From the NCBI GenBank assembly GCA_002011125.2, contig MTMF02000009.1, forward strand, positions 744,989-808,988: 64,000 nt of DNA. Direction: 5' to 3'. A model generated the notes under the pieces. It had not been told where the DNA came from. It was given only the letters and a program-made list of their open reading frames with translations, and did no database searches. Shown piece after piece: positions 7,733 through 43,733 of the stretch. Source of the DNA: Candidatus Hydrothermarchaeum profundi. GTDB lineage: Archaea > Hydrothermarchaeota > Hydrothermarchaeia > Hydrothermarchaeales > Hydrothermarchaeaceae. Numbering within the stretch: position 1 is the stretch's first letter; every line of letters begins with the position of its first letter. A program made the position numbers and the translations under genes.

Positions 7733-8446
7733 TCAGCTGATATCTCTTAGTTTCAACATTGTTCCGTCAAGCAGATATGCTTTAGCGTTTTTCAAGTCGA
7801 CTACTCCTTGCCTGAATAGTGGACCAAGCAATTTTTCTTCTTTGTTGAAGGGTGTCCCATAAATTAGATCATTGAATGCTGGCATCACTACGATCTCTGG
7901 ATTTCTTTTAACCTCGTAGAATTCGTCTGCTCTACGGTTTAATCTCGCTCTGATCCATGCGCTCTCCCTTATACTTCTACCGAACTCGTCTGTGAACTCT
8001 ACGCAGGGGTGATTATGCCCCATTATTATATATTTGAAGTCTATTGGTGACCGAATTTTTAGGTGGCCATGGGTTAGTAGTGCTTCTTCGAGTTCAAGGT
8101 TCTTTACTATCCTCATATCTGGGAGTAATTTCTCAAGATCTCCATCATGGTTGCCTTTTATCACGGTTATATCAGCTAACTCTGAGAGACTTCTAAACAT
8201 CTGCGGGATCTCCGAGTATTCCATCCACGATGTCTTAGGTATGTTATGCTTAACATCCCCAAGTACTATAATCCTGCCCACACCGGATTTTTTTATGAGA
8301 TTGGAGAGCTTAATTTCCATGGTTCTCGCTTGGGAAGGTATCTTGACTCCCTTACTAAAGAGCTCGTATTCTAGTCCGAGATGTAAGTCTGCTACCACTA
8401 GGGCATCAGATAAAATAAGGGCTTTCTCATTGTATATGGGCATCAT
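7733..8446 (-). CDS. Calcineurin-like metallophosphoesterase (ICC-like)
   Basis: DLHLG, GDVKH, GNHD, THGH and GHNHP motifs. Confidence 0.9.
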   Translation of the reverse strand: MMPIYNEKALILSDALVVADLHLGLEYELFSKGVKIPSQARTMEIKLSNLIKKSGVGRIIVLGDVKHNIPKTSWMEYSEIPQMFRSLSELADITVIKGNHDGDLEKLLPDMRIVKNLELEEALLTHGHLKIRSPIDFKYIIMGHNHPCVEFTDEFGRSIRESAWIRARLNRRADEFYEVKRNPEIVVMPAFNDLIYGTPFNKEEKLLGPLFRQGVVDLKNAKAYLLDGTMLKLRDIS

Positions 8447-8925
8447 CTAATTTTACCGCCCTGATATCTACCGTTATACCCTTCGGATTCCCCCTGTACT
8501 AAGGAGAAGACTACCTGGGCGATTCTGGCTCCTTTCTCAAGTCTTATTTCGAATTCTGACTCGTTTTTTATTCCAATGGTAAGAGCGCCTTTGTATCCTG
8601 GGTCTATCACGGCTGTTTTTAGTGAAGCACCACACCTGAAGATAGTTGACCTAGGGAAGATGAAAGCTACTAGGTCTAGCGGCATTCTCAGCTTCTCTTT
8701 GGTTGTACATAGGTAATATCTCCCCGGTTTTAGGGTGAATTCTTCTACCTCTTCTATCTCAGGCAGCTTCCTATTTTCCTTGCCTACAAAGGCACCTGAG
8801 ACTACCTCGTATAGTTTTTCTATCCTGAGGTCTACCCCTGCCCCTTGGATATTAGCTTCCTCATAGTCTATGAGTAAGGCCTCCTCTTTTATCCTCTTCA
8901 ATATCTGGCTCTTACCGAGGTACAT
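8443..8925 (-). CDS. dUTPase / dCTP deaminase family protein
   Basis: GVDLR, PRST, VIDPGYKG and RIAQVVF motifs. Confidence 0.85.
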   Translation of the reverse strand: MYLGKSQILKRIKEEALLIDYEEANIQGAGVDLRIEKLYEVVSGAFVGKENRKLPEIEEVEEFTLKPGRYYLCTTKEKLRMPLDLVAFIFPRSTIFRCGASLKTAVIDPGYKGALTIGIKNESEFEIRLEKGARIAQVVFSLVQGESEGYNGRYQGGKIR

Positions 8926-25742: not shown

Positions 25743-27052
25743 GTTGCAGAAGTCGATCTAGTAAAACAAGGATTGAAACATTCTCTGTCGGTGCTATTGG
25801 TGTTAGCTATTTCGGTTGTTGCAGAAGTCGATCTAGTAAAACAAGGATTGAAACCTAATATGTTGTAATGTAACTCAAAACCAACTTTTAAGTTGCAGAA
25901 GTCGATCTAGTAAAACAAGGATTGAAACGTTTCTAACTGGGATTTATCATTTACAAGAACAAAAAGTTGCAGAAGTCGATCTAGTAAAACAAGGATTGAA
26001 ACTTAACAAAAGAAGTAGGTGGTGAGCTTGTTGTTTAGTAAGTTGCAGAAGTCGATCTAGTAAAACAAGGATTGAAACATTTCCCCATGGAGGCAATGGT
26101 TAGAGAGGTACGGGTGTTGCAGAAGTCGATCTAGTAAAACAAGGATTGAAACATCATCATAGAGTACCTTACCCTGAACTCTATCCTTGGCTCAAGTTGC
26201 AGAAGTCGATCTAGTAAAACAAGGATTGAAACTTGTAATTCGTTCCACATATAGGATAGATACATGTCTGGTTGCAGAAGTCGATCTAGTAAAACAAGGA
26301 TTGAAACAGTCGCAGTGTATCTCTGTATTCAATGTCTAAATCAAGTTGCAGAAGTCGATCTAGTAAAACAAGGATTGAAACCTTGCTGATGTCTTTCTTA
26401 TGTATTTCTTTTGTCTAATTCGTTGCAGAAGTCGATCTAGTAAAACAAGGATTGAAACTTGTAATTCGTTCCACATATAGGATAGATACATGTCTGGTTG
26501 CAGAAGTCGATCTAGTAAAACAAGGATTGAAACCCAACAATCCTTACAACATTTCTCACAAATAAATGTGTTGCAGAAGTCGATCTAGTAAAACAAGGAT
26601 TGAAACCTAACAGTGCAACGGTATATATTATATCGCCTAACACGTTGCAGAAGTCGATCTAGTAAAACAAGGATTGAAACATGTCTTTTCGGTAAATTCG
26701 GCGATATGCGGCGTCGAATGTTGCAGAAGTCGATCTAGTAAAACAAGGATTGAAACCCGAGGATCTCGCTACGATGAGCCGGGAAGAAGTCAGTTGCAGA
26801 AGTCGATCTAGTAAAACAAGGATTGAAACCCAGATATCGCCCCGGCTCTCTTCCCAAAATGGAAGGTTGCAGAAGTCGATCTAGTAAAACAAGGATTGAA
26901 ACAATTGATATCTCCACGGTAAATTATTGAGAATTTTCTGGGTTGCAGAAGTCGATCTAGTAAAACAAGGATTGAAACCTAAGCTTGTATGTCTTCATAA
27001 AAAAACATTAATATTGTTGCAGAAGTCGATCTAGTAAAACAAGGATTGAAAC
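25743..27052 (+). CRISPR. CRISPR array 1: 18 repeats / 17 spacers
   Basis: 37-bp repeat GTTGCAGAAGTCGATCTAGTAAAACAAGGATTGAAAC; spacers about 36-43 bp; possible degenerate terminal repeat near 27088-27124. Confidence 0.98.
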
Positions 27053-27186: not shown

Positions 27187-27594
27187 TCATAGATTTTCAG
27201 GATGCTTGTAACCTAGCTTTTTCATAACGAATCTTCTTACTTCTTTAGTCATTTTTATGGCTTCTTCTGCTTCTTCATTAGTTGGTTCGAGGAGAGTAGG
27301 ATACCTGAACTCTGCCGCATACTCTTTAAACTTTTCTAGGTTCAATTGACGAAGCTTTTCAAAATCTCTTTCACTTTCTATGCACAAGCTCAGTAGGTCA
27401 AGTATATCATGCGTCTTTCTAAATCTGATTTGTTTTGATATCAAATATGCTTTTAAGTACTTTTCTGCGGCTTGCTGTGCGTGGAATGTTATAACCCATG
27501 GCTCTTCTCCATAATTAAGGAGCCTTCTTGCTACTCTCAGCTCTGTTTCCGCTCTATTGAACCATCTATCTACTTCCTCCTTCACTTCGTTCAA
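27187..27594 (-). CDS. HEPN domain protein (HEPN-MNT module)
   Basis: FHAQQAAEKYLKA, KTHDI and FRYP motifs. Confidence 0.9.
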   Translation of the reverse strand: MNEVKEEVDRWFNRAETELRVARRLLNYGEEPWVITFHAQQAAEKYLKAYLISKQIRFRKTHDILDLLSLCIESERDFEKLRQLNLEKFKEYAAEFRYPTLLEPTNEEAEEAIKMTKEVRRFVMKKLGYKHPENL

Positions 27595-27941
27595 AGCGTT
27601 ACACCTTCCTCAGATGCCTCATTTGCTATAGTGTTTACAACATTTTTTTTTCTCTCAAAAGTTTCTCTATCAATTATTATTAAATCAACTTTAATACCAT
27701 ATTCACGTAGTCTTCTTATTGTTTCAATGTAAAAATGCCAGAATGTGTTTCGGTCCACCTTCTCGTTGGTTGTTACCAGTATATCCCAGTCAGAATATTC
27801 TTTAGCCTCCTCACTTGCTCTTGAACCAAACAGGATTATCCTATAAATCTTTATATTGTATTTTTTTGCGGCTTTTAAAATGGTAGTCCTTATTTTCGTA
27901 ATGGCATCTTTATCTATTTCTCTTATCATAGAATTTTCCAT
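27591..27941 (-). CDS. Minimal nucleotidyltransferase (MNT)
   Basis: LFGSRA...SDWDIL; overlaps the HEPN gene. Confidence 0.92.
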   Translation of the reverse strand: MENSMIREIDKDAITKIRTTILKAAKKYNIKIYRIILFGSRASEEAKEYSDWDILVTTNEKVDRNTFWHFYIETIRRLREYGIKVDLIIIDRETFERKKNVVNTIANEASEEGVTL

Positions 27942-31927: not shown

Positions 31928-32212
31928 ATGAAGACTTCAATAGGATATATAGACCGGCGTGACCTGACGCCTGAGGAGACTGACATCTGTGCTGATTGCA
32001 GGTCTAAGGGCTTGAATATATGCGAAATCGACGAGATATGCCAGGCCAGGCTTGCGGCGGCCCTTGGTAATATGAGAGATATTGATTCGTCAATAGATTT
32101 TGCCAGAAAAAAGGGACTCATAAAGGTCCGAGAGATTGATGTCGGGGGAGAGAAAAGGCGGTTTATAAAGATTACGGAGGAGGGAGAGGTTCTCTTCGCC
32201 CTTATGAAGTAA
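31928..32212 (+). CDS. Small hypothetical protein (four Cys plus a wHTH-like C-terminus)
   Basis: CADC...CEIDEIC; KGLIKV...RRFIKITEEG. Confidence 0.55.
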   Translation: MKTSIGYIDRRDLTPEETDICADCRSKGLNICEIDEICQARLAAALGNMRDIDSSIDFARKKGLIKVREIDVGGEKRRFIKITEEGEVLFALMK

Positions 32213-32238
32213 CGCAGGGTTATTGGGCGTGGCAATGT

Positions 32239-33087
32239 ATGAAGGCGGGTCCTGAGTGTCTCCAGTGTTTAAAGGAGCAGGCTAAGCGCTCTCTGAGTTT
32301 TTCTGGTGTAAACGGCGAGATCCTGGAGAGCATGATACGTTTCGTAGATGAAATCTTCGGTGAGGATAAGATACCTGCCAACCTCGGAACTATTCTTCAC
32401 CGAAGGATAATGGAGATAATCGGAGGCGATCCTTATAAGGAGAAAAAGAGAACCTCCAATAGAGAAGCTTTGAAGCTAGAGGGATATGCGAGAGAACTTA
32501 TAAGGAGGGCTGAAAACCCTCTCTTACAGTCCTTTAAGGTAGCGTTGGCGGGGAACCTCCTGGACTTCAGCATATCAGATGTCAGGGTTAACGTTGAAGA
32601 GCTTAAGAAAGCCTTAAACGATGGCTTCGAGGTTGATGATAGTGGAGAGCTATTAAAATTCTTGGAGAATGCTAGCACCGTGTTGTACCTCTGTGATAAC
32701 GCAGGTGAGATAGCCTTCGATAAGCTATGTATACTTGAGTTGCAGACGATGGGCCTAGAAGTAACAGCAGCTGTGAAGTCCGGTCCGATACTAAACGATG
32801 CTACTATGGAAGACGCTTTGGCAGTGGGATTACCAGAGGTTTGCGAGGTTATAACGATTGGCTCTAACTGTGTAGGAGTTAACCTTGAAGAAGCCTCAAA
32901 GGAGTTTATACAGAGGTTTAAATCATTTGACCTAATCATTGCAAAAGGCCAGGGTAACTATGAGACCTTGGGTGATGTAAATAAGGATATCCTATTCCTT
33001 TTGAAAGCAAAATGCCTGCCGGTAGCAAGAGCCCTTGGGGTGGGTTTAAAGGGTAGTGTCCTGTTTTTTAATCGAGCTTGTTTATAA
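32239..33087 (+). CDS. DUF89/ARMT1-like damage-control phosphatase
   Basis: ECLQC, GNLLD, DNAGE, NDAT, KGQGNYE and KAKC motifs. Confidence 0.92.
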   Translation: MKAGPECLQCLKEQAKRSLSFSGVNGEILESMIRFVDEIFGEDKIPANLGTILHRRIMEIIGGDPYKEKKRTSNREALKLEGYARELIRRAENPLLQSFKVALAGNLLDFSISDVRVNVEELKKALNDGFEVDDSGELLKFLENASTVLYLCDNAGEIAFDKLCILELQTMGLEVTAAVKSGPILNDATMEDALAVGLPEVCEVITIGSNCVGVNLEEASKEFIQRFKSFDLIIAKGQGNYETLGDVNKDILFLLKAKCLPVARALGVGLKGSVLFFNRACL

Positions 33088-34309
33088 CCAGTCCGGTGAG
33101 GGGCTTGGGATAGAAATAGGTTGCTTTTCCAGGCATCCTCTCGCCGTTTAGAGCCACATCTCTAACCTCTTCCACTCTAGTTGGGTTTACAAAAAAGACC
33201 ATCTTATATTCTCCTCTGTCGACAGCTCTTATCGCCTTCTCCGCGTCAATCTCGTAGTTTATATGTCCCTCGTCGTTTAATCCAAGCACGTTTTCAATAA
33301 CCAAGTAACGGAGTATTGTAACAGCGAGGTTCTTCCATGCCTTGGATTTAGTGTTTCCGAATATCTCGTTCATCAGATTTTTTTGGAGCTTCAAATAATA
33401 ATAGCTTCCATTATAAAGCCCATAGGAGTGGCGGTTTCTCCTCATTTCCTCGAACATCTCCTGCTTACTCGCTCTTGTTATGCTGAAGTTTTCTTCAAGC
33501 TGTCTGAGAAATCTATTAAAATCGAGCTCCTCTAGGTCAGCTATCAAGCGATGGGCAGGCAGTATCGTTACTCCTCCGCAGTCCATATTTGCCATGTACA
33601 TCAGGGTGTAATCGTAGTTCAGTCCCTTTTTCCTCATCTCATCCCTAAATATCAGGGCGGTAGTGTACCTGTGGTGTCCATCAGCAATGAACAGCTGCTT
33701 TTCCTTCATAATGGACTTGACCTTCTCTATGGTGCTTTTATCGCTTATTTTCCAGAGCCTATGTCGTACTCCGTCAACGCTGATATCGATGAGTGGTTCT
33801 TCAAAGCTCTTTTCAAGTAAGTCTTCGATTCTTTTCTCTGGGTCGGAATAGAGAGTATATATTTGGCTGAAGTTGGCTCTACATGCCTTCAAGAGTTCAA
33901 ATCTATCCTCTATTGCCCTGCGCAGTGTCTCTTCATGGGGGAGTATCACTTTTTTCTCGAATTCCTCCAGCCTGCAGAGAGCTATGAATCCCTTCAAAAC
34001 TTTCCGCTTGCCATCATGAAGATAGTCCATGTAGTATGCATAGATAGAAGGCTCCTCGTCTCTGACTAGGGTCCCGTCTTTAAGCCAACTCTCCAAGTAC
34101 TCTCTCGCCCGTATATACTTATTATTAGATTCGTTGTCTCCCTCTTCATCCTTCCCCAATATAAGACGGATCACATTTTTTTCATGCCGGCTATAATACT
34201 CGTCACGCTCTTCTGGAGAGATAACATCGTAAGGGGGGGAAACTACCTTCTCGATTTCATCGAGAGCATAGCGTATACCCTTAAAGGGAAGGATGTCAAC
34301 CATGAACAA
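33068..34309 (-). CDS. DUF1015 family protein
   Basis: PPYDVI, PHEET, IADGHHRY and MPGKATYFYPKP motifs. Confidence 0.92.
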   Translation of the reverse strand: MFMVDILPFKGIRYALDEIEKVVSPPYDVISPEERDEYYSRHEKNVIRLILGKDEEGDNESNNKYIRAREYLESWLKDGTLVRDEEPSIYAYYMDYLHDGKRKVLKGFIALCRLEEFEKKVILPHEETLRRAIEDRFELLKACRANFSQIYTLYSDPEKRIEDLLEKSFEEPLIDISVDGVRHRLWKISDKSTIEKVKSIMKEKQLFIADGHHRYTTALIFRDEMRKKGLNYDYTLMYMANMDCGGVTILPAHRLIADLEELDFNRFLRQLEENFSITRASKQEMFEEMRRNRHSYGLYNGSYYYLKLQKNLMNEIFGNTKSKAWKNLAVTILRYLVIENVLGLNDEGHINYEIDAEKAIRAVDRGEYKMVFFVNPTRVEEVRDVALNGERMPGKATYFYPKPLTGLVINKLD

Positions 34310-34356
34310 CCCATGAAGAAAAATGAAATATAATACTTTCTATATGTCACCTTTTC

Positions 34357-34437
34357 TTATCTACGTCTATCTAGCTCTTCCTCTCTAGCTATAATAGCGA
34401 TTTCTTTTGGAACCCGTGTTGTTATAGTGACTCCCAT
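34357..34437 (-). pseudogene. Truncated ribbon-helix-helix (UPF0175-like) antitoxin remnant
   Basis: MGVTITTRVPKEIAIIAREEELDRRR* (26 aa). Confidence 0.4.
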
Positions 34438-34515
34438 TTTTATTCCATCTTTGTATTAAAATTGTAATGCATTTAATACAAAAAGTTACTACTCTATCGT
34501 AGAGAAAATATTTTC

Positions 34516-34857
34516 TTATTTAAGAACCCAGATCAACTTTTTTCCAGCATGGTACATTGCTTTAAGACCATATTCCTTTGCAAGAGATAGGCCTGCTATA
34601 GTAAAGAGTTTTGTGAGAGGGGTGAGGTCTATTATAATATCGTAGCTTCTCAGATTTGCTTCTATTGCTTTCTTTAACGCCTCTCTTACTTTGTCCATCT
34701 CATGTTGATATACTTCGAACTCAAAAGTAATCTCTTCATCTCCGTAAGTATAGCCGGCGTCTCTTATCTTCTCTTGGGCAAGAGGTGTCGTAAAAGCAAT
34801 ATGTTTCTTGATCTTTATATTTTCTTTTTCAAGGAAGCCCAGAGCATCCTCAAGCAT
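34516..34857 (-). CDS. Stand-alone CARF-like (Rossmann) domain protein, divergent from cas10; true start probably upstream
   Basis: IIIDLTPLTKLFTIAGLSLA resembles the CARF D-x-T-x-x-x-K motif; the frame stays open upstream (…KAPILLISGYTYDP…) up to a stop at 35038-35040. Confidence 0.6.
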   Translation of the reverse strand: MLEDALGFLEKENIKIKKHIAFTTPLAQEKIRDAGYTYGDEEITFEFEVYQHEMDKVREALKKAIEANLRSYDIIIDLTPLTKLFTIAGLSLAKEYGLKAMYHAGKKLIWVLK

Positions 34858-35127
34858 CTCAAGAGTCGTAGAGTCTGGCTTATTCGGGTCGTAAGTGTAT
34901 CCTGATATCAGTAAAATAGGAGCCTTAATCTCAAACTCACGCCTGAAATATTGGATTTTTTGGGGGGTGACGCTATTAGAGATCTCTTTTCCTTTTTTAT
35001 CTTTTAATGAAAATAGAAAAAATATAAATAAAAGTTTTTAAAATATAAACTTGGAGGCAGTTAGTGGGATTAAAGGAGGTTTACTCATGCTCTTTTGCAT
35101 ACTTGGGGAAGTTGTCTGGTGAGTGAG

Positions 35128-36864
35128 ATGAATGAATTAATACCTGAGCTTCATGACATTGGAAAATTACAGAAGAAATATAAACATAATTTTGAAGATG
35201 CTGGATATACATTTGAATCTAAAACTTGGAGAGGGATTTTAGAACATCACTGTTCTCGTAATTTTGAAAAATATCCCTTAAGTTTAGATACTTTCAAATT
35301 AAAAATAGCAGACAAATTAGCATCTGCGGTATCGAGAGAGTATCGTGAAGATGGATGTCCTATTTATAATGTTTATAAGCTATGGAATCCAACGCGCGAG
35401 GAGATAACTATTCCGCCTCTTAGAACTGAGAAAGATATCAAGGAATTAATTGAATTTACTGTTAGCGTATCTACTTTTGAAGATTTTGTAATAAGATATG
35501 AAAAGCTGTTGAAATATCGGACAGAAGATGCGCATCCAAAGTCTAACTTAACTAGTCTGTATACTCATATGTTGCTTACTGGAAAATTATATAGAATATT
35601 GTCCGCGATAGATGAGTATACGGTCCACCAAGAAATTTTTCAAAATAAGGATGCTGTTTGTAGAGCGATTAATGAAAAAATGAACGAGTGGAAACTACGA
35701 GTTGTGCGATGTAAAATAAATTTTTCTCAGAGTCCGATACGTGCAAAAGATATGAATGTTTTTGTGGCATTAAACACTTCTAACGATGAAATTAAGCACA
35801 AATTTAAGGACAATATTTTATTTTCATTTTCAAATGAACTTTTTTTAATCACTGTTCCTAGAGAGGACATTGTTGGCAAAATCTCTGCTCTAATAAGTAA
35901 AAATGGTTTTTGGATAGAAGTATATGGAGAAGATGATATAAAATTGAGCACGATTGCAAATAGAGGTACTAATATATTTGAAAATTTAAGGAATCCAAAG
36001 GTCGTACATTACCAGCTTGAAAAAGAAATCGCGCCTCCAATATGTGAAATATGTCAAATGAGAAAAGCTACTCCTGAAACTAGGTGGGTGGATGAAGAAA
36101 GTGGCATTATCGAGGAATTATGTGAATATTGTTTTAAAATAAGGCAAATACCTGAAGTAAGACTTAAGAAACTTGTAAACTGGTCGAGCGAGGCTGAAAT
36201 TAAGGTTGTCTATCTTAAAATTTCACTTTCGACAGAACAACTTATGCATACTCTCAACCAACTTTATAGAAACTACACTGGAAGCAATGAACATGTTTCC
36301 TTGTCAATAATCTCAGAATTTCAATGGGATTATGAAGAATTTCTTAAGGAATTTGTAAGGAGAATAAGTATCGCGTTTAATGAAGAGGACATTCAATTAA
36401 TTTTAAATGATTTTTTAGGGATAAAAATAGAAAGAACCTCTGATATTAAAAAAATATTAGAGATATATAGCCAAATTTTTAAACAATACTTTCCTGAATT
36501 TATACAAAAATCTCCGATAAGACTTTCGATTAGTTGTTCGAGTGCCAAATTTCCATTTTTCTGGCACTGGAGGATTTTAAACGATACAAAGGACGAAATA
36601 AATGTAAGCATGATCGGAAAGGGTGAGATGCATCTTAAATTTTCTAAACTTGATGAGTTGCTTAGCATAGATTTACCAAATACCCGCATGTTACACAACT
36701 TAGATAGAATATCGCAGATTTCTAAGAAATTAGCATGGATAATGCTTAATGATAGAAGTGACCGGAGAATGTATAAAGAGTTTGAGGGGTTAAAAAGAGC
36801 GGTACTGGCGACAGGGATTAGCTATTCGAGCATATTAACCTATGCAAAGATTATGGGTGATTAG
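35128..36864 (+). CDS. cas10: Cas10-like large subunit: HD nuclease retained, Palm/cyclase GGDD absent (type III-F-like)
   Basis: LHDIGK, ILEHH, IADKLAS; SLYTH; Zn finger CEIC...CEYC; ILNDF at the GGDD position; start ATG 35128 or GTG 35119 (the track's TTG 35095 is less likely). Confidence 0.85.
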   Translation: MNELIPELHDIGKLQKKYKHNFEDAGYTFESKTWRGILEHHCSRNFEKYPLSLDTFKLKIADKLASAVSREYREDGCPIYNVYKLWNPTREEITIPPLRTEKDIKELIEFTVSVSTFEDFVIRYEKLLKYRTEDAHPKSNLTSLYTHMLLTGKLYRILSAIDEYTVHQEIFQNKDAVCRAINEKMNEWKLRVVRCKINFSQSPIRAKDMNVFVALNTSNDEIKHKFKDNILFSFSNELFLITVPREDIVGKISALISKNGFWIEVYGEDDIKLSTIANRGTNIFENLRNPKVVHYQLEKEIAPPICEICQMRKATPETRWVDEESGIIEELCEYCFKIRQIPEVRLKKLVNWSSEAEIKVVYLKISLSTEQLMHTLNQLYRNYTGSNEHVSLSIISEFQWDYEEFLKEFVRRISIAFNEEDIQLILNDFLGIKIERTSDIKKILEIYSQIFKQYFPEFIQKSPIRLSISCSSAKFPFFWHWRILNDTKDEINVSMIGKGEMHLKFSKLDELLSIDLPNTRMLHNLDRISQISKKLAWIMLNDRSDRRMYKEFEGLKRAVLATGISYSSILTYAKIMGD

Positions 36865-37452
36865 ATGGAGTTTCTTGAATATAGGATAACTTCAGATATC
36901 CTTTGTATGGGGGAAAGAATAAAGAAAGGTACATTTAGGCCGTGTATTACTACAATTCCATATAGTCAAATTACTGGTGCTCTAAAAGCAATACTAGGTA
37001 GAGAAATTGCCGCTACTGGATGTTTAATTCGAGATGGGATACACAATAATGTAGAATATCTGATTTATTCGCCTAGAGATAGAAGTACTGAAACCAGCAA
37101 ATTGCCGCTAACGATACAAATTTTAACTAATGTTCTTGGAAGAGTCTTTATACCAAAGAATGATTCGAGTGAACTACCAGAACAGCTTTCAATAACTATG
37201 GGAGCACTTAAATCAAAAGGTATAGGAAGATGTAAATTAAAGAAGATTAGGAAAATTAAAAATCCTCGATTTAAGCGAGGAATGTTGAATACTCGTATTC
37301 CTCTCGATTTGAAAGAAAACTTTGGAATTAGAAATGTTATAAAACCACAGTATGGTTATTTATTTAGACCAACTTCTTCTACAAGCGGCGTTTATGTACT
37401 TTCTCTATTTGAAAACTCAGAAATTTACGGACCAGAATTTCTGATGAGGTGA
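36865..37452 (+). CDS. cas5: Cas5-group RAMP
   Basis: TIPYSQITGAL; Gly-rich loop MGALKSKGIG; directly follows cas10. Confidence 0.75.
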   Translation: MEFLEYRITSDILCMGERIKKGTFRPCITTIPYSQITGALKAILGREIAATGCLIRDGIHNNVEYLIYSPRDRSTETSKLPLTIQILTNVLGRVFIPKNDSSELPEQLSITMGALKSKGIGRCKLKKIRKIKNPRFKRGMLNTRIPLDLKENFGIRNVIKPQYGYLFRPTSSTSGVYVLSLFENSEIYGPEFLMR

Positions 37453-37456
37453 GTAA

Positions 37457-37744
37457 ATGGATGAAATTGAGCAACTTCTTGAGGAAATAAAAAATGATTC
37501 GAATTTTAAAAAAACGAGATTTACCGCAAATTTTGTAAATGATGTAGCCGATGTCTTTGAAAAATATGGATTTGGAACTACAAGGACGTTCCTAATGGAT
37601 AAAAAAAGTCGCAGAGATTTGCACTTGCAAGCAGTAGCAATATTATCAATTTTAGAAAAATTTGAGAAAATAGAGAAGATTAAATTAAACAGAAGTATTG
37701 GGCGGTACATAATAAAAACATTAAATACATTAAAGAGGGGTTAA
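37457..37744 (+). CDS. Small alpha-helical subunit (Cas11-like)
   Basis: 95 aa, helical and charged; lies between cas5 and cas7. Confidence 0.65.
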   Translation: MDEIEQLLEEIKNDSNFKKTRFTANFVNDVADVFEKYGFGTTRTFLMDKKSRRDLHLQAVAILSILEKFEKIEKIKLNRSIGRYIIKTLNTLKRG

Positions 37745-37745
37745 A

Positions 37746-38522
37746 ATGAAAGTAGAGCAGAAATATAAAGTGATTTTAGTTACTGAGGAGCCTTTTAGAA
37801 TTGGCGGACCAAAAGATCCACTTTCAGGAGCGGATAATCCTGTAGCTATCGTAGGAAGCAAACTAGTAGTGCCCGGACCTTCCTTAAAAGGAGCATATCG
37901 AGCAGAAATAGAGAGATTTTTAATAGACAGATATTATGACAAAATAAATAAAAGGTGGGTTCAGGAAAAAGAAAGCTTAATGCCTTGTATACCTGCGACT
38001 AAACTATCAAAGGATGAGGAGAAGCTAGTGAAAAATAGATTATATAGAAGTGTTGCCTGTCATTACCCTTGTGATAAAAGACGAGATAAATGTGGAAATA
38101 CGGAGCATTCTATTTGTCCAGCTTGCTATTTATTAGGCTCCCAGGGATTGAATGGATTTCTTAGGGTACCCTTCTTGTTTTCAGAGGCTTCAGCTAGCGA
38201 GTTATACTCAGCGAGGATAGATCGAGCAGTTAGTACAGTTGCGCAAGGTACAAACAGACCTTATTCGCTAGTACCGGATGGAACTACATTTGAAGGGACA
38301 TTGACGGTTTTAATCAAAGATGATATCCTCGGTTGGGAGCTGGGAAAACCTAGGCCTCTTAGCGATATTTCAGGCAAAGACATATGGTTACCAAGTCAAG
38401 AGTGGACTCAGGAGAGGATACTAAGTGAAATGATAGTCCAAAGACTTCAGAACATTAAAATCCTTGGCGGATATAAATCAAAGGGTTGCGGTAAGGTTAA
38501 AATAACAATTAAAGAAGTATAG
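37746..38522 (+). CDS. cas7: Cas7-group RAMP (Csm3-like)
   Basis: FRIGG, GADNP, VPGPSLKGAYR, Cys cluster CPACYLLG, LGGYKSKGCG. Confidence 0.9.
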   Translation: MKVEQKYKVILVTEEPFRIGGPKDPLSGADNPVAIVGSKLVVPGPSLKGAYRAEIERFLIDRYYDKINKRWVQEKESLMPCIPATKLSKDEEKLVKNRLYRSVACHYPCDKRRDKCGNTEHSICPACYLLGSQGLNGFLRVPFLFSEASASELYSARIDRAVSTVAQGTNRPYSLVPDGTTFEGTLTVLIKDDILGWELGKPRPLSDISGKDIWLPSQEWTQERILSEMIVQRLQNIKILGGYKSKGCGKVKITIKEV

Positions 38523-38564
38523 ATAAAAAAGAGCTATAGCTCGGTCCTTAAAATTTTTATATAG

Positions 38565-39263
38565 ATGAGATTCAAGACAACTTATTTAGTTCTTAGTACA
38601 GATAGGCCAGTCAAAGAAGAGGCTTCTAAGCTTAGAGGCTATATTGGTAACAAGTTTGAGGAGTATCCCATCCTTCATCATCATATAAGGGAAGTCGGCT
38701 ACTTATACACTTATCCTCGAGTGCAATACAAGGTGCTTGAAGGAACGCCTCACATCCTAGGGATAGAGGAGGGTGCGAAGGTATTGAAGGAGATATCAGG
38801 CGGCTTAAATGAGTTGGTATTGGGCAGAAGCCATTATACGGTTAAACAGAAAATACTCTATGAGCAGGAGGTAGAGCTTAGATCTTCTAGGAAGAAGCAG
38901 TATAGGTTTATAACACCTTGGCTGGCCTTAAATCCTGATAACTATAGAACCTATCAGAATATTGAAAATTGGAAGGAAAAGAAGGAGTTTCTAAACCGCA
39001 TACTGGTGGGCAACATACTCTCGATGTGCAAGAGCCTTGGTATAGTAGTGGAAAAGCATTTATATGCCCACACCCATCTTTATTCAAGAAAAGTAAATTA
39101 TAAGAATGCCCCATTAATGGGCTTCACAGGCGAGTTTAGAGTGAACTTTATTATCCCCGAGTTCTTCGGCTTGGGGAAGGGGGTAAGCCAGGGGTTTGGC
39201 GCAGTTAAAAATGAAGGTCGTGATCGACGACTACGGGGCCTACCTGAAGAAAAAAGGCAATAG
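38565..39263 (+). CDS. cas6: CRISPR endoribonuclease Cas6 (Cas6b-like)
   Basis: LRGYIG, HHH, YPRVQYK, TPWLALN and GLGKGVSQGFG motifs. Confidence 0.93.
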   Translation: MRFKTTYLVLSTDRPVKEEASKLRGYIGNKFEEYPILHHHIREVGYLYTYPRVQYKVLEGTPHILGIEEGAKVLKEISGGLNELVLGRSHYTVKQKILYEQEVELRSSRKKQYRFITPWLALNPDNYRTYQNIENWKEKKEFLNRILVGNILSMCKSLGIVVEKHLYAHTHLYSRKVNYKNAPLMGFTGEFRVNFIIPEFFGLGKGVSQGFGAVKNEGRDRRLRGLPEEKRQ

Positions 39264-40209
39264 GTTCATAGTATCCTCAGAGGAGAAGAGCGAGGAGTTT
39301 GCATCTGATAAGGTAACGCAGGTCATTATACTAAAGGGATCGGCGATCACTACTGATGCAGTAAAATTGGCAGCAGAGAAATGCATAGACATAATATGCT
39401 TGGATAGAAGCGGAAAGCCTTACGCTAGAATATACCCGTGCAAGCTAGGTGGCACCACGTTAACTAGAAGAAATCAGCTGGCAGCATATTCAACCTCTAA
39501 GGGAGTCTTTCTGGCTAAAGCTTTTGTAGGCGCTAAAGTTGAAAACATGTCTTATTTTCTTAAGTCACTAGCAAAGAGTAGAGGAAATAGTGTACTAAAA
39601 GAAGCAGGGAATTTGATCTTGAAATTTTCTAAGAATATAGATGATGTAGAGGGAAATATCGATACCGTGAGAAACAGGCTTCTAGGCATTGAGGGTGAAT
39701 GTTCTAAGACTTATTTCTCTGCCTTAAGCGAGGTATTACCTAAAGGGCTCTACTCTGGGGTAAGAACAAGGAGGCCTCCTAGGGATGCGTTTAATGCGAT
39801 GATAAGCTATGGATATGGTGTTTTATATTCTGAGATTGAGAAGGCGTGTATAATTTCTGGGCTAGACCCATATTTAGGCTTCTTGCATACGGATAGATAC
39901 GGTAGACCTTCGCTGGTAATGGATTTGATAGAGGAGTTTAGGCAGCCAGTGGTTGATAGAGCAATGGTAACTCTGGTTGCAAGAGGTCAAGTAGAGAAAG
40001 ACTGCGTTAAAAGAGAGGAGGGAGTGTATCTGAACAAGAAAGGAAGGAAAATGGCTATTGAAGCGATGATGTCTCGCTTGGAGTCAAAAATAAAGTATAA
40101 GGGCAGAAGAATCTCTATGGAGGATATCATATTGAAGCAGGCTAGGGAGTTAGTGGGCTTTCTTAACGGTGACCGTAGGTCATATAAGCCATTTGTCTAC
40201 AGGTGGTGA
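39211..40209 (+). CDS. cas1: CRISPR integrase Cas1
   Basis: LLGIEG, NAMISYGY, GLDPYLGFLH and DLIEEFR motifs. Confidence 0.97.
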   Translation: MKVVIDDYGAYLKKKGNRFIVSSEEKSEEFASDKVTQVIILKGSAITTDAVKLAAEKCIDIICLDRSGKPYARIYPCKLGGTTLTRRNQLAAYSTSKGVFLAKAFVGAKVENMSYFLKSLAKSRGNSVLKEAGNLILKFSKNIDDVEGNIDTVRNRLLGIEGECSKTYFSALSEVLPKGLYSGVRTRRPPRDAFNAMISYGYGVLYSEIEKACIISGLDPYLGFLHTDRYGRPSLVMDLIEEFRQPVVDRAMVTLVARGQVEKDCVKREEGVYLNKKGRKMAIEAMMSRLESKIKYKGRRISMEDIILKQARELVGFLNGDRRSYKPFVYRW

Positions 40210-40210
40210 A

Positions 40211-40513
40211 ATGCTAACTTGGGTGATATATGATATCTCTGATAATAGGCTGCGAACCCGTGTTTCTGAGAAGTGTAAAGACTACGGTATGGAGAGGTTA
40301 CAGAAAAGCGCCTTCCTCGGGGATCTCAGCAGGAATAACTCTGAGATGCTCGCTATAGAGATAGAGAAAATATTGGATGATGAGAATACTGTGGAAGAGG
40401 ACTGCGTATTCTTTTTGCCTATGTGTAGCTCCTGTATAAGCAAGAAGATAACGATTGGCAGAGGATTTGATGAAGAAGAATTTAAGGACAAATTCTACAC
40501 ATTCTTCGAGTGA
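40211..40513 (+). CDS. cas2: Cas2
   Basis: VIYDIS and RLQKSAF motifs; RBS GGTGGTGA. Confidence 0.96.
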   Translation: MLTWVIYDISDNRLRTRVSEKCKDYGMERLQKSAFLGDLSRNNSEMLAIEIEKILDDENTVEEDCVFFLPMCSSCISKKITIGRGFDEEEFKDKFYTFFE

Positions 40514-41100
40514 ATATAATGGACAAAGAGGGCTATTTCTCCGCAAGAGATATAGTAGACTACGCATACTGTCCTAGAACAATATACTTCCGCTACTGTA
40601 TAAAAGCAGGGAAAGAAAAAACGCCAAAAATGAATAAAGGGCAGGAGTTGCATGAGTCTTTCACAGACAAGTCTAAAAGAACAAAAATCGTGAGAAAGTT
40701 GCCAAGGCTCCCTAAGAGATACAGCGTCAGGCTATCCTCAAGAAAGTATCATTTCAATACGATGGTAGATTGCATTATTTTAGATAACTCTAAGGCTTAT
40801 CCAATAGAATTCAAATACTCTTTAAAGCCAAAATACCTATACAATACTCATAAGTATCAGCTTGTCGCGCAGGCAATGGCAATAGAAGAAGAGCTAGGTA
40901 AGATAGTGCCTTACGGTTACATAAAATATGTAGATGGTTCTACAGCCAGGGTTTCAATTACTCAAAAGTTAAAGGAGAAGGTAGCTAATATTCTCCTTGA
41001 GATGGAAGACATAATAAGGTTCGAAAGGCTCCCGAAAGAAACGTCATCGAAGAAGAGATGCAATTCGTGTTTTTACATAAACCTATGTAGAAGACTGTAG
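40510..41100 (+). CDS. cas4: Cas4
   Basis: YCPR, G..LH, VDC, IEFK, QLVAQA and C..C.Y...C motifs. Confidence 0.95.
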   Translation: MNIMDKEGYFSARDIVDYAYCPRTIYFRYCIKAGKEKTPKMNKGQELHESFTDKSKRTKIVRKLPRLPKRYSVRLSSRKYHFNTMVDCIILDNSKAYPIEFKYSLKPKYLYNTHKYQLVAQAMAIEEELGKIVPYGYIKYVDGSTARVSITQKLKEKVANILLEMEDIIRFERLPKETSSKKRCNSCFYINLCRRL

Positions 41101-41229: not shown

Positions 41230-43733
41230 GTTGCAGAAGTCGATCTAGTAAAACAAGGATTGAAACAGTCTACAGGGTCGCTAGTAGTTAAGGATACTAA
41301 TAGTTGCAGAAGTCGATCTAGTAAAACAAGGATTGAAACATGTTCCACAATCTAGAATATGAGCGAGAAATTCTTTGTTGCAGAAGTCGATCTAGTAAAA
41401 CAAGGATTGAAACCTTATACATCAGGCCATGTTCAACAAAATTACTGCACGTTGCAGAAGTCGATCTAGTAAAACAAGGATTGAAACAACTCAAACGAGG
41501 CACGTGCTTTGGCGGCCTCGTAGTGTTGCAGAAGTCGATCTAGTAAAACAAGGATTGAAACATCGAAGACGGAGTTGACAAAAACTCCAGCCTTTTCGTT
41601 GCAGAAGTCGATCTAGTAAAACAAGGATTGAAACCATAATATACCGAGATATACGAGGATATATAAAAACTTGTTGCAGAAGTCGATCTAGTAAAACAAG
41701 GATTGAAACTCCCAGACGAGATAGACGATACCGACTCTCTATACGTTGCAGAAGTCGATCTAGTAAAACAAGGATTGAAACCACCGGCACAGGCATGGCA
41801 GCCGCCAGGGGATACAGGTTGCAGAAGTCGATCTAGTAAAACAAGGATTGAAACGGGGTATACGTGCACCTCAGCGGCAGGGACGTCGACGAGTTGCAGA
41901 AGTCGATCTAGTAAAACAAGGATTGAAACGTTTCCAAGACTTGATATTTATGTAGATTCCTAGCAGTTGCAGAAGTCGATCTAGTAAAACAAGGATTGAA
42001 ACGTCTCAGTGAGCAGGCGGATAGACTTTGAAGACTACGGTTGCAGAAGTCGATCTAGTAAAACAAGGATTGAAACATGTTGATAGCGATAGTGATTTTG
42101 AGAGCGGATTAAAGAGTTGCAGAAGTCGATCTAGTAAAACAAGGATTGAAACTCTTGAACGGATGCATCTCTCGCCAGTCCCTTATCTCTGTTGCAGAAG
42201 TCGATCTAGTAAAACAAGGATTGAAACACCATAAAGCTATTGTTCAATATTCCGAGTGTAAACAAGTTGCAGAAGTCGATCTAGTAAAACAAGGATTGAA
42301 ACTTGCATTTACCGAGGAGCCTTATCTCAGTGCTTTTACCGTTGCAGAAGTCGATCTAGTAAAACAAGGATTGAAACAATTGCCGGAATTCCAGCCAGTT
42401 CTTTTCTATACGTACAAGTTGCAGAAGTCGATCTAGTAAAACAAGGATTGAAACCACTACGCAAAGGCACTAAGCGTAGGCTTCCAGAGGTAAGTTGCAG
42501 AAGTCGATCTAGTAAAACAAGGATTGAAACACCTTAACCTCTTTTTTTGCCTCAACACTATGAGACTTGTTGCAGAAGTCGATCTAGTAAAACAAGGATT
42601 GAAACTGTGACATACGGTCTTGATATATACACATTAAAGCCTGTTGCAGAAGTCGATCTAGTAAAACAAGGATTGAAACTCCTTAATAGTCTTTCCAACT
42701 CAAAGAAATTATCTTCAGTTGCAGAAGTCGATCTAGTAAAACAAGGATTGAAACATATTTATCAACAGATATTACCTCAAATTTTCTATCAGTTGCAGAA
42801 GTCGATCTAGTAAAACAAGGATTGAAACTGTGACATACGGTCTTGATATATACACATTAAAGCCTGTTGCAGAAGTCGATCTAGTAAAACAAGGATTGAA
42901 ACTCCTTAATAGTCTTTCCAACTCAAAGAAATTATCTTCAGTTGCAGAAGTCGATCTAGTAAAACAAGGATTGAAACATATTTATCAACAGATATTACCT
43001 CAAATTTTCTATCAGTTGCAGAAGTCGATCTAGTAAAACAAGGATTGAAACATCATATAGAGCGTCTAAGAACTTATTCCAATTTCTGTTGCAGAAGTCG
43101 ATCTAGTAAAACAAGGATTGAAACTCCTCACTTAGCTCGATGCCCGCCTCATACTTATCTATAATAGTTGCAGAAGTCGATCTAGTAAAACAAGGATTGA
43201 AACTGCTCGGCATTACTCAGCTCTTCATACCATTCTGTAGCGTTGCAGAAGTCGATCTAGTAAAACAAGGATTGAAACAGATCCTCAAACATATTTCATC
43301 ACTCCTTACATTTTTTTTGTTGCAGAAGTCGATCTAGTAAAACAAGGATTGAAACAAATAATCCAGGATTAAACCAGTATGCTGTTAGCTCATTAGGTTG
43401 CAGAAGTCGATCTAGTAAAACAAGGATTGAAACGGGATTTTCTGCAACTCTCTGTCTAATATCTTTTGTAAGTTGCAGAAGTCGATCTAGTAAAACAAGG
43501 ATTGAAACTGGTGTAGCTTCGTGTTGTGTCAAATTTAATATCCTCGTTGCAGAAGTCGATCTAGTAAAACAAGGATTGAAACAATTCATTTTTCAATTTC
43601 CAAACTCTTGGCGTCTTTTTGTTGCAGAAGTCGATCTAGTAAAACAAGGATTGAAACCCTGCCAAGCCTTTCAACGTTGCAATCTGAACTGGCAGAGTTG
43701 CAGAAGTCGATCTAGTAAAACAAGGATTGAAAC
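41230..43733 (+). CRISPR. CRISPR array 2: 34 repeats / 33 spacers
   Basis: Same 37-bp repeat as array 1; 3' ATTGAAAC and the leader position give + orientation. Confidence 0.98.

What the first reader, a model, noticed from the sequence alone, without database searches (positions are those of the whole stretch)
34516..35040. CARF-like gene divergently linked to a Cas10 that should not make cOA
Seen: a stand-alone ORF head-to-head with cas10 with a DLTPLTK motif resembling the CARF D-x-T-G-G-x-K ligand loop. The open frame extends upstream through a beta-strand-like APILLISGYT with no ATG/GTG/TTG. Known: stand-alone CARFs are often ring nucleases or regulators, and cyclase-dead type III loci usually lack CARFs. 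Inference: it may be a relic of a replaced cOA-producing module, a ring nuclease for a system elsewhere in the genome, or a sensor of a different ligand. It has a non-canonical start or is 5'-truncated.
Basis: partly seen in the sequence, partly recalled or inferred. Interest (0 to 1): 0.72.

Follow-up and report, generated by a model that had tools for sequence, protein, structure and literature searches.

The report
Truncated CARF regulator relic beside III-F
This is the back three quarters of a CRISPR-linked sensor-regulator gene that has lost its DNA-binding front end and its start codon, probably when a signalling-free CRISPR module landed next to it, so it is most likely a young dead relic and not a working sensor.

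Summary
On the minus strand an ATG ORF (34516-34857, 113 aa) sits in a frame open to 35037. The 60 codons upstream hold no ATG, GTG or TTG. The gene lies head-to-head with a type III-F cas10.

The domain is a true CARF: PADLOC CARF_m5 E 1.4e-16, AlphaFold pLDDT 89, and best fold matches Can2, Card1, Csm6, Crn1 and Csa3 (Z up to 13.1).

It is not a stand-alone CARF. All 12 close relatives are 190-235 aa proteins with an N-terminal ArsR-type winged helix-turn-helix. The window keeps only the part matching residues 51-212 of a 213-aa relative, and the missing part is found nowhere else in the genome. So this is a 5'-truncated gene.

Close relatives with context sit next to GGDD-bearing Cas10. This genome has no cyclase-type Cas10, SMODS or Csx1/Csm6. 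The III-F effector cassette is a low-GC3 island between the relic and cas6b-cas1-cas2-cas4, and it is a bare four-gene cassette in 4 of 4 other archaeal loci.

Most likely (about 0.7) this is a recent relic left by insertion or swap of the effector module. All 28 family-invariant residues are intact, so a CARF-only product from a non-canonical start is not excluded (about 0.15).

The parts
34516..35004 (-). Remnant coding region (162 codons plus stop). It keeps the end of the wHTH wing, the linker helix and the complete CARF domain of a wHTH-CARF (CARF_m5) regulator gene.
   Evidence: tblastn and alignment with relatives covers frame residues 9/12 to 173. PADLOC PDLC01987 matches profile positions 55-195 of 195, E 1.2e-21. 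AF2 model pLDDT 89.1. CARF fold matches.
34516..34857 (-). The only ORF with a canonical start (ATG, 113 aa). It begins inside helix alpha1 and lacks strand beta1.
   Evidence: The Met is residue 50 of the 162-residue model, where H45-60 is alpha1 and E30-35 is beta1.
34894..34923 (-). beta1 and the loop after it ('APILLISGYT', with family-invariant Gly). This is the site of the first conserved CARF loop. It lies upstream of any canonical start codon.
34609..34629 (-). 'DLTPLTK', the invariant D-L-T-P-L-x-K loop after beta4. This is the site of the second conserved CARF loop.
   Evidence: Invariant in 30 of 30 aligned family members and 28 of 28. It lies between E122-126 and H132-145 in the model.
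35005..35040 (-). Non-homologous, start-less 11-codon extension (KLLFIFFLFSL) plus the closing TAA. This is the truncation boundary. It is AT-rich.
35041..35127 (.). Divergent intergenic region and cas10f upstream region. It has TATA-like TTTATATT elements and an 11-codon ORF (35088-35123) behind a strong Shine-Dalgarno-like AAAGGAGG.
   Evidence: Read. Not tested further.
35128..36864 (+). cas10f (type III-F large subunit). It has the HD motif ELHDIGK and a zinc finger, and no GGDD at the Palm2 hairpin.
   Evidence: PADLOC Cas10a|Cas10f E 3e-111. Motifs. Pfam Cas10 Palm2 (PF22335) has no match anywhere in the genome at E <= 0.1. Alignment with the G036 homologue.
36865..38522 (+). cas5f (36865-37452), cas11f (37457-37744) and cas7f (37746-38522), the rest of the III-F effector cassette. 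GC3 is low.
   Evidence: PADLOC Cas5_IIIf 7e-61, Cas11f 8e-32, Cas7_IIIf 9e-63. GC3 0.21-0.31.
38565..41100 (+). cas6b (38565-39263), cas1 (39196-40209), cas2 (40169-40513) and cas4 (40510-41100). GC3 is 0.43-0.49, unlike the effector cassette.
   Evidence: Pfam, PADLOC, GC3.
41230..43733 (+). CRISPR array of 34 identical 37-nt repeats.
25743..27052 (+). Second CRISPR array of 18 identical copies of the same repeat.

Best explanation
The feature is a 5'-truncated relic of a gene for a two-domain transcription regulator. Full-length relatives have an N-terminal ArsR-type winged helix-turn-helix, a linker helix and a C-terminal CARF sensor domain (the CARF_m5 clade of PADLOC). They should work like an inverted Csa3: a dimeric CARF pocket binds a nucleotide signal, and the wHTH changes its hold on a nearby promoter. 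For the window's own clade the signal is most likely a cyclic oligoadenylate made by an adjacent GGDD Cas10. In this archaeal genome the first ~52 codons are gone, together with the start codon and presumably the promoter. Those codons encoded helices 1-3 of the wHTH, including the recognition helix, and the first wing strand. What remains is the wing end, the linker helix and an intact CARF domain. The break abuts an AT-rich, low-GC3 type III-F effector cassette (cas10f-cas5f-cas11f-cas7f), which sits between the relic and cas6b-cas1-cas2-cas4 plus array. I infer that this cassette was inserted into an older CRISPR locus, or replaced its effector module, and clipped the regulator gene. With no DNA-binding domain, no canonical start and no recognisable cOA source in the genome, the relic most likely does nothing and is simply too young to have decayed.

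Shown: the truncation, the CARF fold, the family architecture, the III-F identity, the compositional break, and the lack of another Cas10.
Inferred: the order of events, the cOA ligand, and the loss of function.
For: Truncation:
- The 12 relatives are 190-235 aa, and 8 of the 12 carry precomputed Pfam ArsR/HTH hits.
- The alignment shows the conserved PRSSLNHHL helix in the relatives and none in the window.
- The full-length relative P0003 matches the own genome only over its residues 51-212. The next hits are at E >= 0.02.
- The PADLOC CARF_m5 profile matches the genome once, from profile position 55. The 16 matches in 15 other genomes all start at profile positions 2-32.

Fold:
- The AF2 model of the remnant has pLDDT 89.1 and pTM 0.84.
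- Foldseek's top hits are Csm6, Cdn1, Card1, Crn1, Cam1 and Can2, with E down to 1.8e-6.
- VIA-align gives Z 13.1 (Can2 8bao_B, rmsd 2.0 over 114 residues). Ranks 1-22 are nearly all named CARF proteins, including Csa3 at Z 9.5. The first unrelated Rossmann protein scores Z 7.8.
- The full-length relative models as wHTH + linker + CARF (pLDDT 94.2). Its N-terminal ~73 residues match ArsR/SmtB repressors at rmsd 1.3-1.9.

Context of relatives:
- In L001 and L002 the gene is divergent from an unknown 271/279-aa gene followed by a Cas10. The L001 Cas10 has HD and SGGDD. The L002 Cas10 is cut at the contig end.
- In L010 it lies beside Csx1, Csm2, Csm3-like genes, a Cas10 with IGGDD and a Cas1-like gene.
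- In G351:C37 it lies between cas2 and cas6, about 12 kb from a Palm2 Cas10.

III-F cassette as an insert:
- GC3 is 0.278/0.209/0.260/0.305 for cas10f/5f/11f/7f. It is 0.464/0.447/0.487/0.431 for cas6b/1/2/4 and 0.383 for the relic. The mean over 1121 long ORFs of the genome is 0.355, sd 0.066.
- In 4 of 4 other archaeal III-F loci the cassette has no Cas6b, Cas1, Cas2 or Cas4 homologue and no array within the 10-20 kb fetched.

No signal source in the genome (97.65% complete):
- Pfam Cas10 Palm2 gives 0 matches at E <= 0.1.
- Cas10 profiles hit only the HD end of Cas10f.
- tblastn with two GGDD Cas10s finds nothing.
- SMODS gives 0 matches and Csx1/Csm6 gives 0.

Literature:
Against: - The remnant shows no decay. 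There is no stop or frameshift in 162 homologous codons. It keeps 28 of 28 columns that are invariant in the 12 close relatives, which is as good as any intact member. Its terminal branch is ordinary, 0.44 against 0.16-0.72 for others in its clade. This fits a very recent truncation, but it fits continued selection equally well.
- No sister genome with an intact copy at this locus was found. The 3 same-family genomes have no match, and they are 62-82% complete. The order of events is therefore inferred from composition and analogy only.
- GC3 shows that the effector cassette and its flanks differ. It does not show which is the newcomer.
- Linkage of the family to cyclase-type Cas10 is partial. 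7 of 15 other family-bearing genomes have a Palm2 Cas10, against 71 of 385 genomes without the family. Only 2 have it on the same contig. The Fisher one-sided p is 0.014-0.02, which is overstated because relatives are not independent.
- One clade-mate (L008) has no cas gene within its 8.9-kb contig.
Confidence: 0.7

Rival explanations
1. The CARF domain is still made as a stand-alone ~137-155-aa protein from a near-cognate start (ATT 34929, ATC 34956 or ATC 34983). It would act without a DNA-binding domain, for example as a ligand sink or ring nuclease for cyclic oligoadenylates that arrive with invaders, or as a sensor of another nucleotide.
For: - All 28 family-invariant residues are retained, there are no stops, and the branch length is ordinary.
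- The invariant residues of the whole family cluster in the loops after beta1 and beta4. From recall, these are the loops that bind ligand in known CARFs.
- TATA-like TTTATATT elements lie at 35049-35042 and 35028-35021, upstream on the minus strand.
- Solved stand-alone CARF ring nucleases (Sso2081, Sis0455) are among the fold matches, with Z 10.7 and 18-19% identity.
- A few short database relatives could be stand-alone forms (P0026 159 aa, P0029 164 aa), but their completeness is unknown.
Against: - There is no ATG, GTG or TTG before beta1.
- All 12 close relatives are two-domain proteins.
- No cOA producer and no other CARF effector was detected in the genome.
- The upstream region is AT-rich intergenic DNA, where TATA-like words are expected by chance, and it also has to serve cas10f.
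- The promoter scan found 5 sigma-70-type sites against 3.5 expected, and that scan is not designed for archaeal promoters.
Confidence: 0.15
2. The annotated 113-aa ATG ORF (34516-34857) is the real product and works as a small protein.
For: It has a canonical start. The identical 113-aa protein is in the protein collections as the window's own gene call (P0001).
Against: The Met lies inside helix alpha1 of the model, so the product lacks strand beta1 and the invariant Gly loop after it. The homology continues for 49 more codons upstream of this Met. That shows the ATG is an internal Met of a longer ancestral gene.
Confidence: 0.05
3. The truncation is an assembly or sequencing artefact, and the real gene is intact.
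For: The genome is a 19-contig assembly. In run X2 two contigs meet at 34971/34972, inside the remnant.
Against: - In X1 a single contig covers 32000-38627 with 0 differences.
- In X2 a contig covers 34971-35826, across the truncation boundary, with 0 differences.
- The missing 50 residues are found in no frame anywhere in the genome.
Confidence: 0.02

Closest known systems
CARF_m5 clade of the CARF superfamily (PADLOC-DB profile PDLC01987 'CARF_m5--CARF'). From recall, the name comes from the 2020 CARF classification in Nucleic Acids Research, which I could not read.
   Same: The remnant matches the profile at E 1.4e-16 and 1.2e-21. Full-length relatives match nearly end to end, profile positions 4-13 to 195.
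   Different: The window copy covers only profile positions 55-195. The profile label says 'CARF' only, but the profile and all full-length members include an N-terminal ArsR-type wHTH.
Csa3 (CARF-wHTH transcription factor that binds cA4; PDB 6wxq; PMC8699464, abstract and passages seen)
   Same: It has the same two modules, a CARF sensor plus a winged HTH. It is CRISPR-locus-associated and is a presumed cOA-responsive regulator. The CARF fold match is Z 9.5. The PADLOC Csa3 profiles hit the wHTH of full-length relatives at E 1e-6 to 3e-9.
   Different: The domain order is reversed: wHTH is N-terminal here and C-terminal in Csa3. No Csa3 profile matches the CARF part. The window copy has no wHTH at all.
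Stand-alone CARF ring nucleases Crn1 (Sso2081, Sis0455)
   Same: What is left in the window is a CARF-only frame of similar size. The fold match is Z 10.7 with rmsd 2.6 over 119 residues and 19% identity. Foldseek gives E 3.5e-5.
   Different: Crn1 proteins are complete genes with their own starts. This frame has none, and its relatives are two-domain regulators. Catalytic residues were not compared.
Type III-F CRISPR-Cas (the neighbouring module)
   Same: Cas10f, Cas5f, Cas11f and Cas7f are all recognised. The HD motif is present and there is no GGDD. No CARF effector belongs to it, as reported for III-F (PMC11229360).
   Different: Here the cassette is joined to cas6b-cas1-cas2-cas4 and two arrays. 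Most III-F loci are reported without arrays (PMC12669027, legend seen). The 4 other archaeal loci I fetched were bare.

Membership tests
CARF superfamily | Rossmann-like alpha/beta fold of the CARF type | tested here: met
   The AF2 model has pLDDT 89.1. VIA-align gives Z 13.1-8.4 to Can2, Card1, Csm6, Cdn1, Cad1, Cam1, Crn1, Csx1 and Csa3, with the first unrelated Rossmann protein at Z 7.8. Foldseek gives E down to 1.8e-6.
CARF superfamily | Significant match to a CARF sequence profile | tested here: met
   PADLOC CARF_m5 E 1.4e-16. Weaker hits to CARF4, CARF_m1 and Csx1 profiles. Pfam and NCBIfam have no match.
CARF superfamily | Conserved loops after beta1 and beta4 that line the ligand pocket | tested here: inconclusive
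   The family-invariant Gly after beta1 and the invariant D-L-T-P-L-x-K after beta4 lie at the expected places in the model. No residue-level superposition on a ligand-bound CARF was made. The role of these loops is recalled, not tested.
CARF superfamily | Binds a cyclic oligoadenylate or related nucleotide as a homodimer | not testable with these tools
   No cOA ligand is offered by the complex predictor, and the homodimer job never ran because the queue was full.
wHTH-CARF regulators (CARF_m5 family, full-length form) | N-terminal ArsR-type winged HTH with the conserved recognition helix | tested here: not met
   The window frame aligns only from the end of the wing onward. Genome-wide, only residues 51-212 of 213 are found. 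Profile positions 1-54 are absent.
wHTH-CARF regulators (CARF_m5 family, full-length form) | Complete ORF with a start codon | tested here: not met
   No ATG, GTG or TTG lies between the TAA at 35038-35040 and the internal Met at 34857.
Csa3 | N-terminal CARF followed by a C-terminal wHTH | tested here: not met
   Full-length relatives have the opposite order. The window copy has no wHTH.
Crn1-type ring nuclease | Independent stand-alone CARF gene with catalytic Ser/Lys-type residues and cA4 cleavage | not tested
   Only a fold resemblance was obtained. Catalytic residues were not mapped and activity cannot be tested here.
Type III-F CRISPR-Cas (neighbour) | Cas10f, Cas5f, Cas11f and a single Cas7f, with the Cas10 lacking the cyclase GGDD | tested here: met
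   PADLOC hits. The Palm2 hairpin reads ILND in the window and ILKE in G036. 'GEDD' at residue 278 lies before the zinc finger and reads 'VER' in G036. Pfam Palm2 has no match.

The most novel reading that the evidence does not exclude
The undecayed, start-less CARF domain is still translated from a near-cognate or otherwise unconventional start. It would serve a signalling-free III-F locus as a free nucleotide sensor or sink. One example would be mopping up or cleaving cyclic oligoadenylates that do not come from the host's own Cas10. In that case, domain loss would have turned a regulator into a stand-alone CARF protein.
Probability: 0.1. Interest if true: 0.6.

Novelty: new member of a known kind. 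Interest (0 to 1): 0.3.

Why it matters
For this locus, the result removes an apparent paradox, a CARF sensor beside a cyclase-dead Cas10. The CARF is a clipped leftover and not a partner of the III-F system. The locus is a tidy natural example of effector-module turnover inside a CRISPR locus. Adaptation genes, cas6 and the arrays stayed. A low-GC3 III-F cassette came in. The cOA-era regulator was decapitated.

More generally, the uncharacterised CARF_m5 clade is shown here to be a wHTH-CARF 'inverted Csa3' family, with only 21 clusters among 1.84 billion representatives. It would be worth a biochemical test with a full-length member.

Tried and rejected
- Pfam and NCBIfam on the remnant gave only sub-threshold noise. 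A PDB sequence search found nothing relevant.
- Expression: no RNA holder was listed for the region. The two DNA runs laid were contigs identical to the window, so they gave no polymorphism for a selection test.
- In X2 the contigs over 34971-38950 have lower depth (23-41) than the flanks (58-73), and two contigs meet at 34971/2. Some contig ends there carry adapter-like letters and the stretch is AT-rich, so I draw nothing from this.
There is no result.
What it says about CARF_m5 is unknown to me. Full-text searches for 'CARF_m5' and 'HTH-CARF' found 0 papers.
- I looked for a shared operator. L001 and L002 share an inverted repeat TCTAGTTA-N23/24-TAACTAGA in the divergent intergenic region. 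It is not in the window's intergenic region.
- I compared the 271-aa neighbour of L001 with the 271-aa radical-SAM neighbour of the Asgard-type clade. They are unrelated.
- The Csa3 PADLOC profile gave 43 hits in the own genome, all to its wHTH part (profile positions above 100), so it is uninformative.
- The cas3_core profile gave only sub-cut-off helicase hits, best 73 bits against a cut-off of 102.
- A PDB sequence search with Cas10f found nothing significant.
- I asked whether the actin-neighbour family member is a solved arcadin. There was no PDB sequence match, so this stays unresolved.

Full report
**What is there**

On the minus strand an ATG ORF runs 34516..34857 (113 aa). Its frame stays open upstream to 35037 and is closed by TAA at 35038-35040. 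None of the 60 codons before the ATG is ATG, GTG or TTG.

The gene lies head-to-head with a type III-F effector cassette, recognised by PADLOC:
- Cas10a|Cas10f, E 3e-111
- Cas5_IIIf, E 7e-61
- Cas11f, E 8e-32
- Cas7_IIIf, E 9e-63

The cassette is followed by cas6b, cas1, cas2 and cas4 and an array of 34 identical 37-nt repeats. A second array of 18 copies lies at 25743-27052.

The genome is archaeal, as shown by the archaea-specific ThrRS editing domain and other genes. It has 2.19 Mb and is 97.65% complete.

**It is a CARF**

Pfam and NCBIfam see nothing. PADLOC's CARF_m5 profile matches at E 1.4e-16.

An AlphaFold model of the 162 homologous residues, built on a 30-sequence alignment, has pLDDT 89.1 and pTM 0.84.
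- Foldseek against the PDB returns Csm6, Cdn1, Card1, Crn1 (Sis0455, Sso2081), Cam1 and Can2, with E down to 1.8e-6.
- The Foldseek-independent search gives Z 13.1 to Can2 (rmsd 2.0 over 114 residues).
- Ranks 1-22 are nearly all named CARF proteins, including Csa3 at Z 9.5. Unrelated Rossmann proteins begin at Z 7.8.

**It is not a stand-alone CARF but a beheaded two-domain gene**

The word-indexed protein search found 13 proteins. One is the window's own 113-aa call. The other 12 are 190-235 aa, and 8 of them carry precomputed ArsR-type HTH Pfam hits.

The alignment shows the conserved PRSSLNHHL recognition helix in the relatives. The window frame joins the alignment only at 'KDKKGKEISNSVTPQKIQYFRREFEIKAP', homologous sequence that lies upstream of any start codon.

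A full-length relative models at pLDDT 94.2 with these elements:
- three helices and a two-strand wing, residues 7-64
- a linker helix, residues 66-76
- CARF from residue 82

Its N-terminal ~73 residues match CadC, CzrA, SmtB and HlyU at rmsd 1.3-1.9. The window therefore retains the equivalent of residues ~53-214.

Further searches agree:
- A six-frame search of the whole genome with a 213-aa relative finds only residues 51-212, at this locus.
- The CARF_m5 profile matches the genome once, from profile position 55.
- The 16 matches in 15 other archaeal genomes all start at positions 2-32.
- An exhaustive HMMER scan of 1.84 billion representatives found 21 clusters at E <= 0.001. Most are 212-233 aa with the CARF starting near residue 83-96.

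The only canonical start (34857) falls inside helix alpha1. A 113-aa product would lack strand beta1 and the invariant Gly loop after it.

The truncated form is not an assembly slip. One contig of run X1 spans 32000-38627, and a contig of the independent run X2 spans 34971-35826. Both are without differences.

**The neighbour cannot make cOA, and nothing else in the genome looks able to**

- Cas10f has the HD motif (ELHDIGK) and a zinc finger.
- Its Palm2 hairpin reads ILND, and ILKE in the 34%-identical G036 homologue.
- A 'GEDD' at residue 278 lies before the zinc finger and reads 'VER' in G036.
- Pfam's Cas10 Palm2 model has no match in the genome at E <= 0.1.
- Three Cas10 profiles hit nothing, or only the HD end of Cas10f.
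- tblastn with two GGDD Cas10 proteins finds nothing.
- SMODS and Csx1/Csm6 profiles find nothing.
- No Cas3 scores over the cut-off.

**Where relatives live**

None of the 26 loci from the genome and metagenome collections carries III-F proteins by tblastn. In an IQ-TREE the window copy sits in a supported clade of 14 rows (97/98) with an ordinary terminal branch.

Context of clade-mates and other type III-linked members:
- L001 and L002 are divergent from an unknown 271/279-aa gene followed by a Cas10. L001's 881-aa Cas10 has HD and SGGDD. L002's is cut by the contig end.
- L008 has a DruE-like helicase and CbiM/Q genes, and no cas gene, on its 8.9 kb.
- L009 is too short to judge.
- In a second clade, L010 lies beside Csx1, Csm2, Csm3-like genes, a Cas10 with IGGDD and a Cas1-like gene.
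- In a third clade, G351:C37 lies between cas2 and cas6, about 12 kb from a Palm2 Cas10.

Across the 401 archaeal genomes sampled:
- 16 carry the family.
- Of the 15 others than the window's genome, 7 have a Palm2 Cas10, against 71 of 385 genomes without the family.
- The Fisher one-sided p is 0.014-0.02, overstated because relatives are not independent.

Conversely, III-F Cas10f occurs in 6 of 401 genomes including this one. Of the 5 others, 0 carry a CARF_m5 member at E <= 0.001. That search has no control of its own; the same profile finds the window's relic at 1.2e-21. The family is therefore linked, in part, to cyclase-type type III systems and not to III-F.

**How the relic probably arose**

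GC3 of the four III-F effector genes is 0.21-0.31. It is 0.43-0.49 for cas6b, cas1, cas2 and cas4, and 0.38 for the relic. The genome's 1121 long ORFs average 0.355, sd 0.066.

In 4 of 4 other archaeal III-F loci the four-gene cassette stands alone. No Cas6b, Cas1, Cas2 or Cas4 homologue and no array lies within the 10-20 kb fetched. This matches the published remark that most III-F loci lack arrays (PMC12669027, legend).

In G351:C37 the full-length regulator is directly divergent from cas6. Removing the III-F cassette from the window would give that same arrangement. I therefore infer that the cassette was inserted into, or swapped into, a pre-existing CRISPR locus, and that it removed the regulator's first ~52 codons and its promoter. 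This step is inference. No sister genome with the ancestral state was found.

**Dead or alive?**

Against a dead relic:
- The 162 retained codons have no stop or frameshift.
- They keep 28 of 28 columns invariant in the close relatives.
- They show no branch acceleration.

This is what a very recent truncation would look like, but it is also what selection would give.

In-frame ATT and ATC codons lie upstream of beta1, and TATA-like words are present in the AT-rich spacer. Neither point discriminates.

My estimates are about 0.7 for a non-functional young relic, 0.15 for a CARF-only product from an unconventional start, 0.05 for a functional 113-aa product, and 0.02 for an artefact.

**Comparison with known systems**

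Full-length members work, by inference, like Csa3, a CARF-gated wHTH regulator. But the domain order is inverted, and no Csa3 profile matches their CARF part. They are not Csa3 family members.

The remnant resembles Crn1-type stand-alone CARFs in size and fold only.

The CARF_m5 label comes from the PADLOC library. The paper that defined it was not available, and full-text searches for 'CARF_m5' and 'HTH-CARF' found no paper.

**Verdict**

The intriguing reading, a functional CARF partner of a cyclase-dead Cas10, is not supported. Interest is modest.

Noticed in passing
L074 (G049), L075 (G072), L076 (G195), L079 (G290), L080 (G214), L081 (G347), L083 (G135); family gene at about 7950-8870 of each locus: In 7 of 10 genomic loci fetched from other archaea, the wHTH-CARF_m5 gene lies divergently next to an actin-family gene (Pfam Actin, E 1e-114 to 1e-134). 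In the ~3-Mb genomes it is followed by an RNase III-domain gene and an HD/HD_assoc_2 gene. These copies form their own clade (99/96), apart from the window's. A CARF-type regulator beside archaeal actin looks worth its own study. Whether it corresponds to any described 'arcadin' was not resolved: there was no PDB sequence match, and only passages of PMC5173319 were read.
   Followed up: partly
L006, L014, L015, L017, L025, L026 (metagenome and Promethearchaeota-titled loci): A further clade of the family (about 30% identical to the window copy) is always divergent from a 271-aa radical-SAM gene. That gene is followed by large helicase, NTPase, TPR or LRR genes. No cas genes were seen by Pfam.
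   Followed up: partly
L003:9908-10387, and protein P0025: Truncation recurs in this family. L003 holds another HTH-less, start-less copy about 1.5 kb downstream of an integrase-like ORF. P0025 (120 aa) is an integrase-type N-terminal SAM-like segment fused to the last ~35 residues of a family member.
   Followed up: no
window 35071-35127: A strong Shine-Dalgarno-like AAAGGAGG (35071-35078) precedes an ATG at 35088 that opens only an 11-codon ORF (to 35123), in a different frame from cas10f. By alignment with the G036 homologue, cas10f more likely starts at ATG 35128 and not at the listed TTG 35095.
   Followed up: partly
window 42569-43014: A block of three spacers with their repeats (223 nt) is duplicated exactly in the main array (42569-42791 = 42792-43014). 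All 52 repeats of both arrays are identical.
   Followed up: no
window 34971-38950, in run X2: In the independent run X2 the contigs over the III-F cassette have lower depth (23-41) than the flanks (58-73). Two contigs meet at 34971/34972, inside the relic. The cause could be AT-bias or fragmentation, since adapter-like letters sit at some contig ends, or a second allele in that population. It cannot be told from contigs.
   Followed up: no
L001:3542-3580 and L002:2154-2193: The divergent intergenic regions upstream of two full-length relatives share a perfect 8-nt inverted repeat, TCTAGTTA-N23/24-TAACTAGA. It is a candidate operator for the regulator. It is absent from the window's spacer.
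   Followed up: no
window 27187-27941: A HEPN / nucleotidyltransferase gene pair (a probable toxin-antitoxin module) lies just after the first CRISPR array.
   Followed up: no
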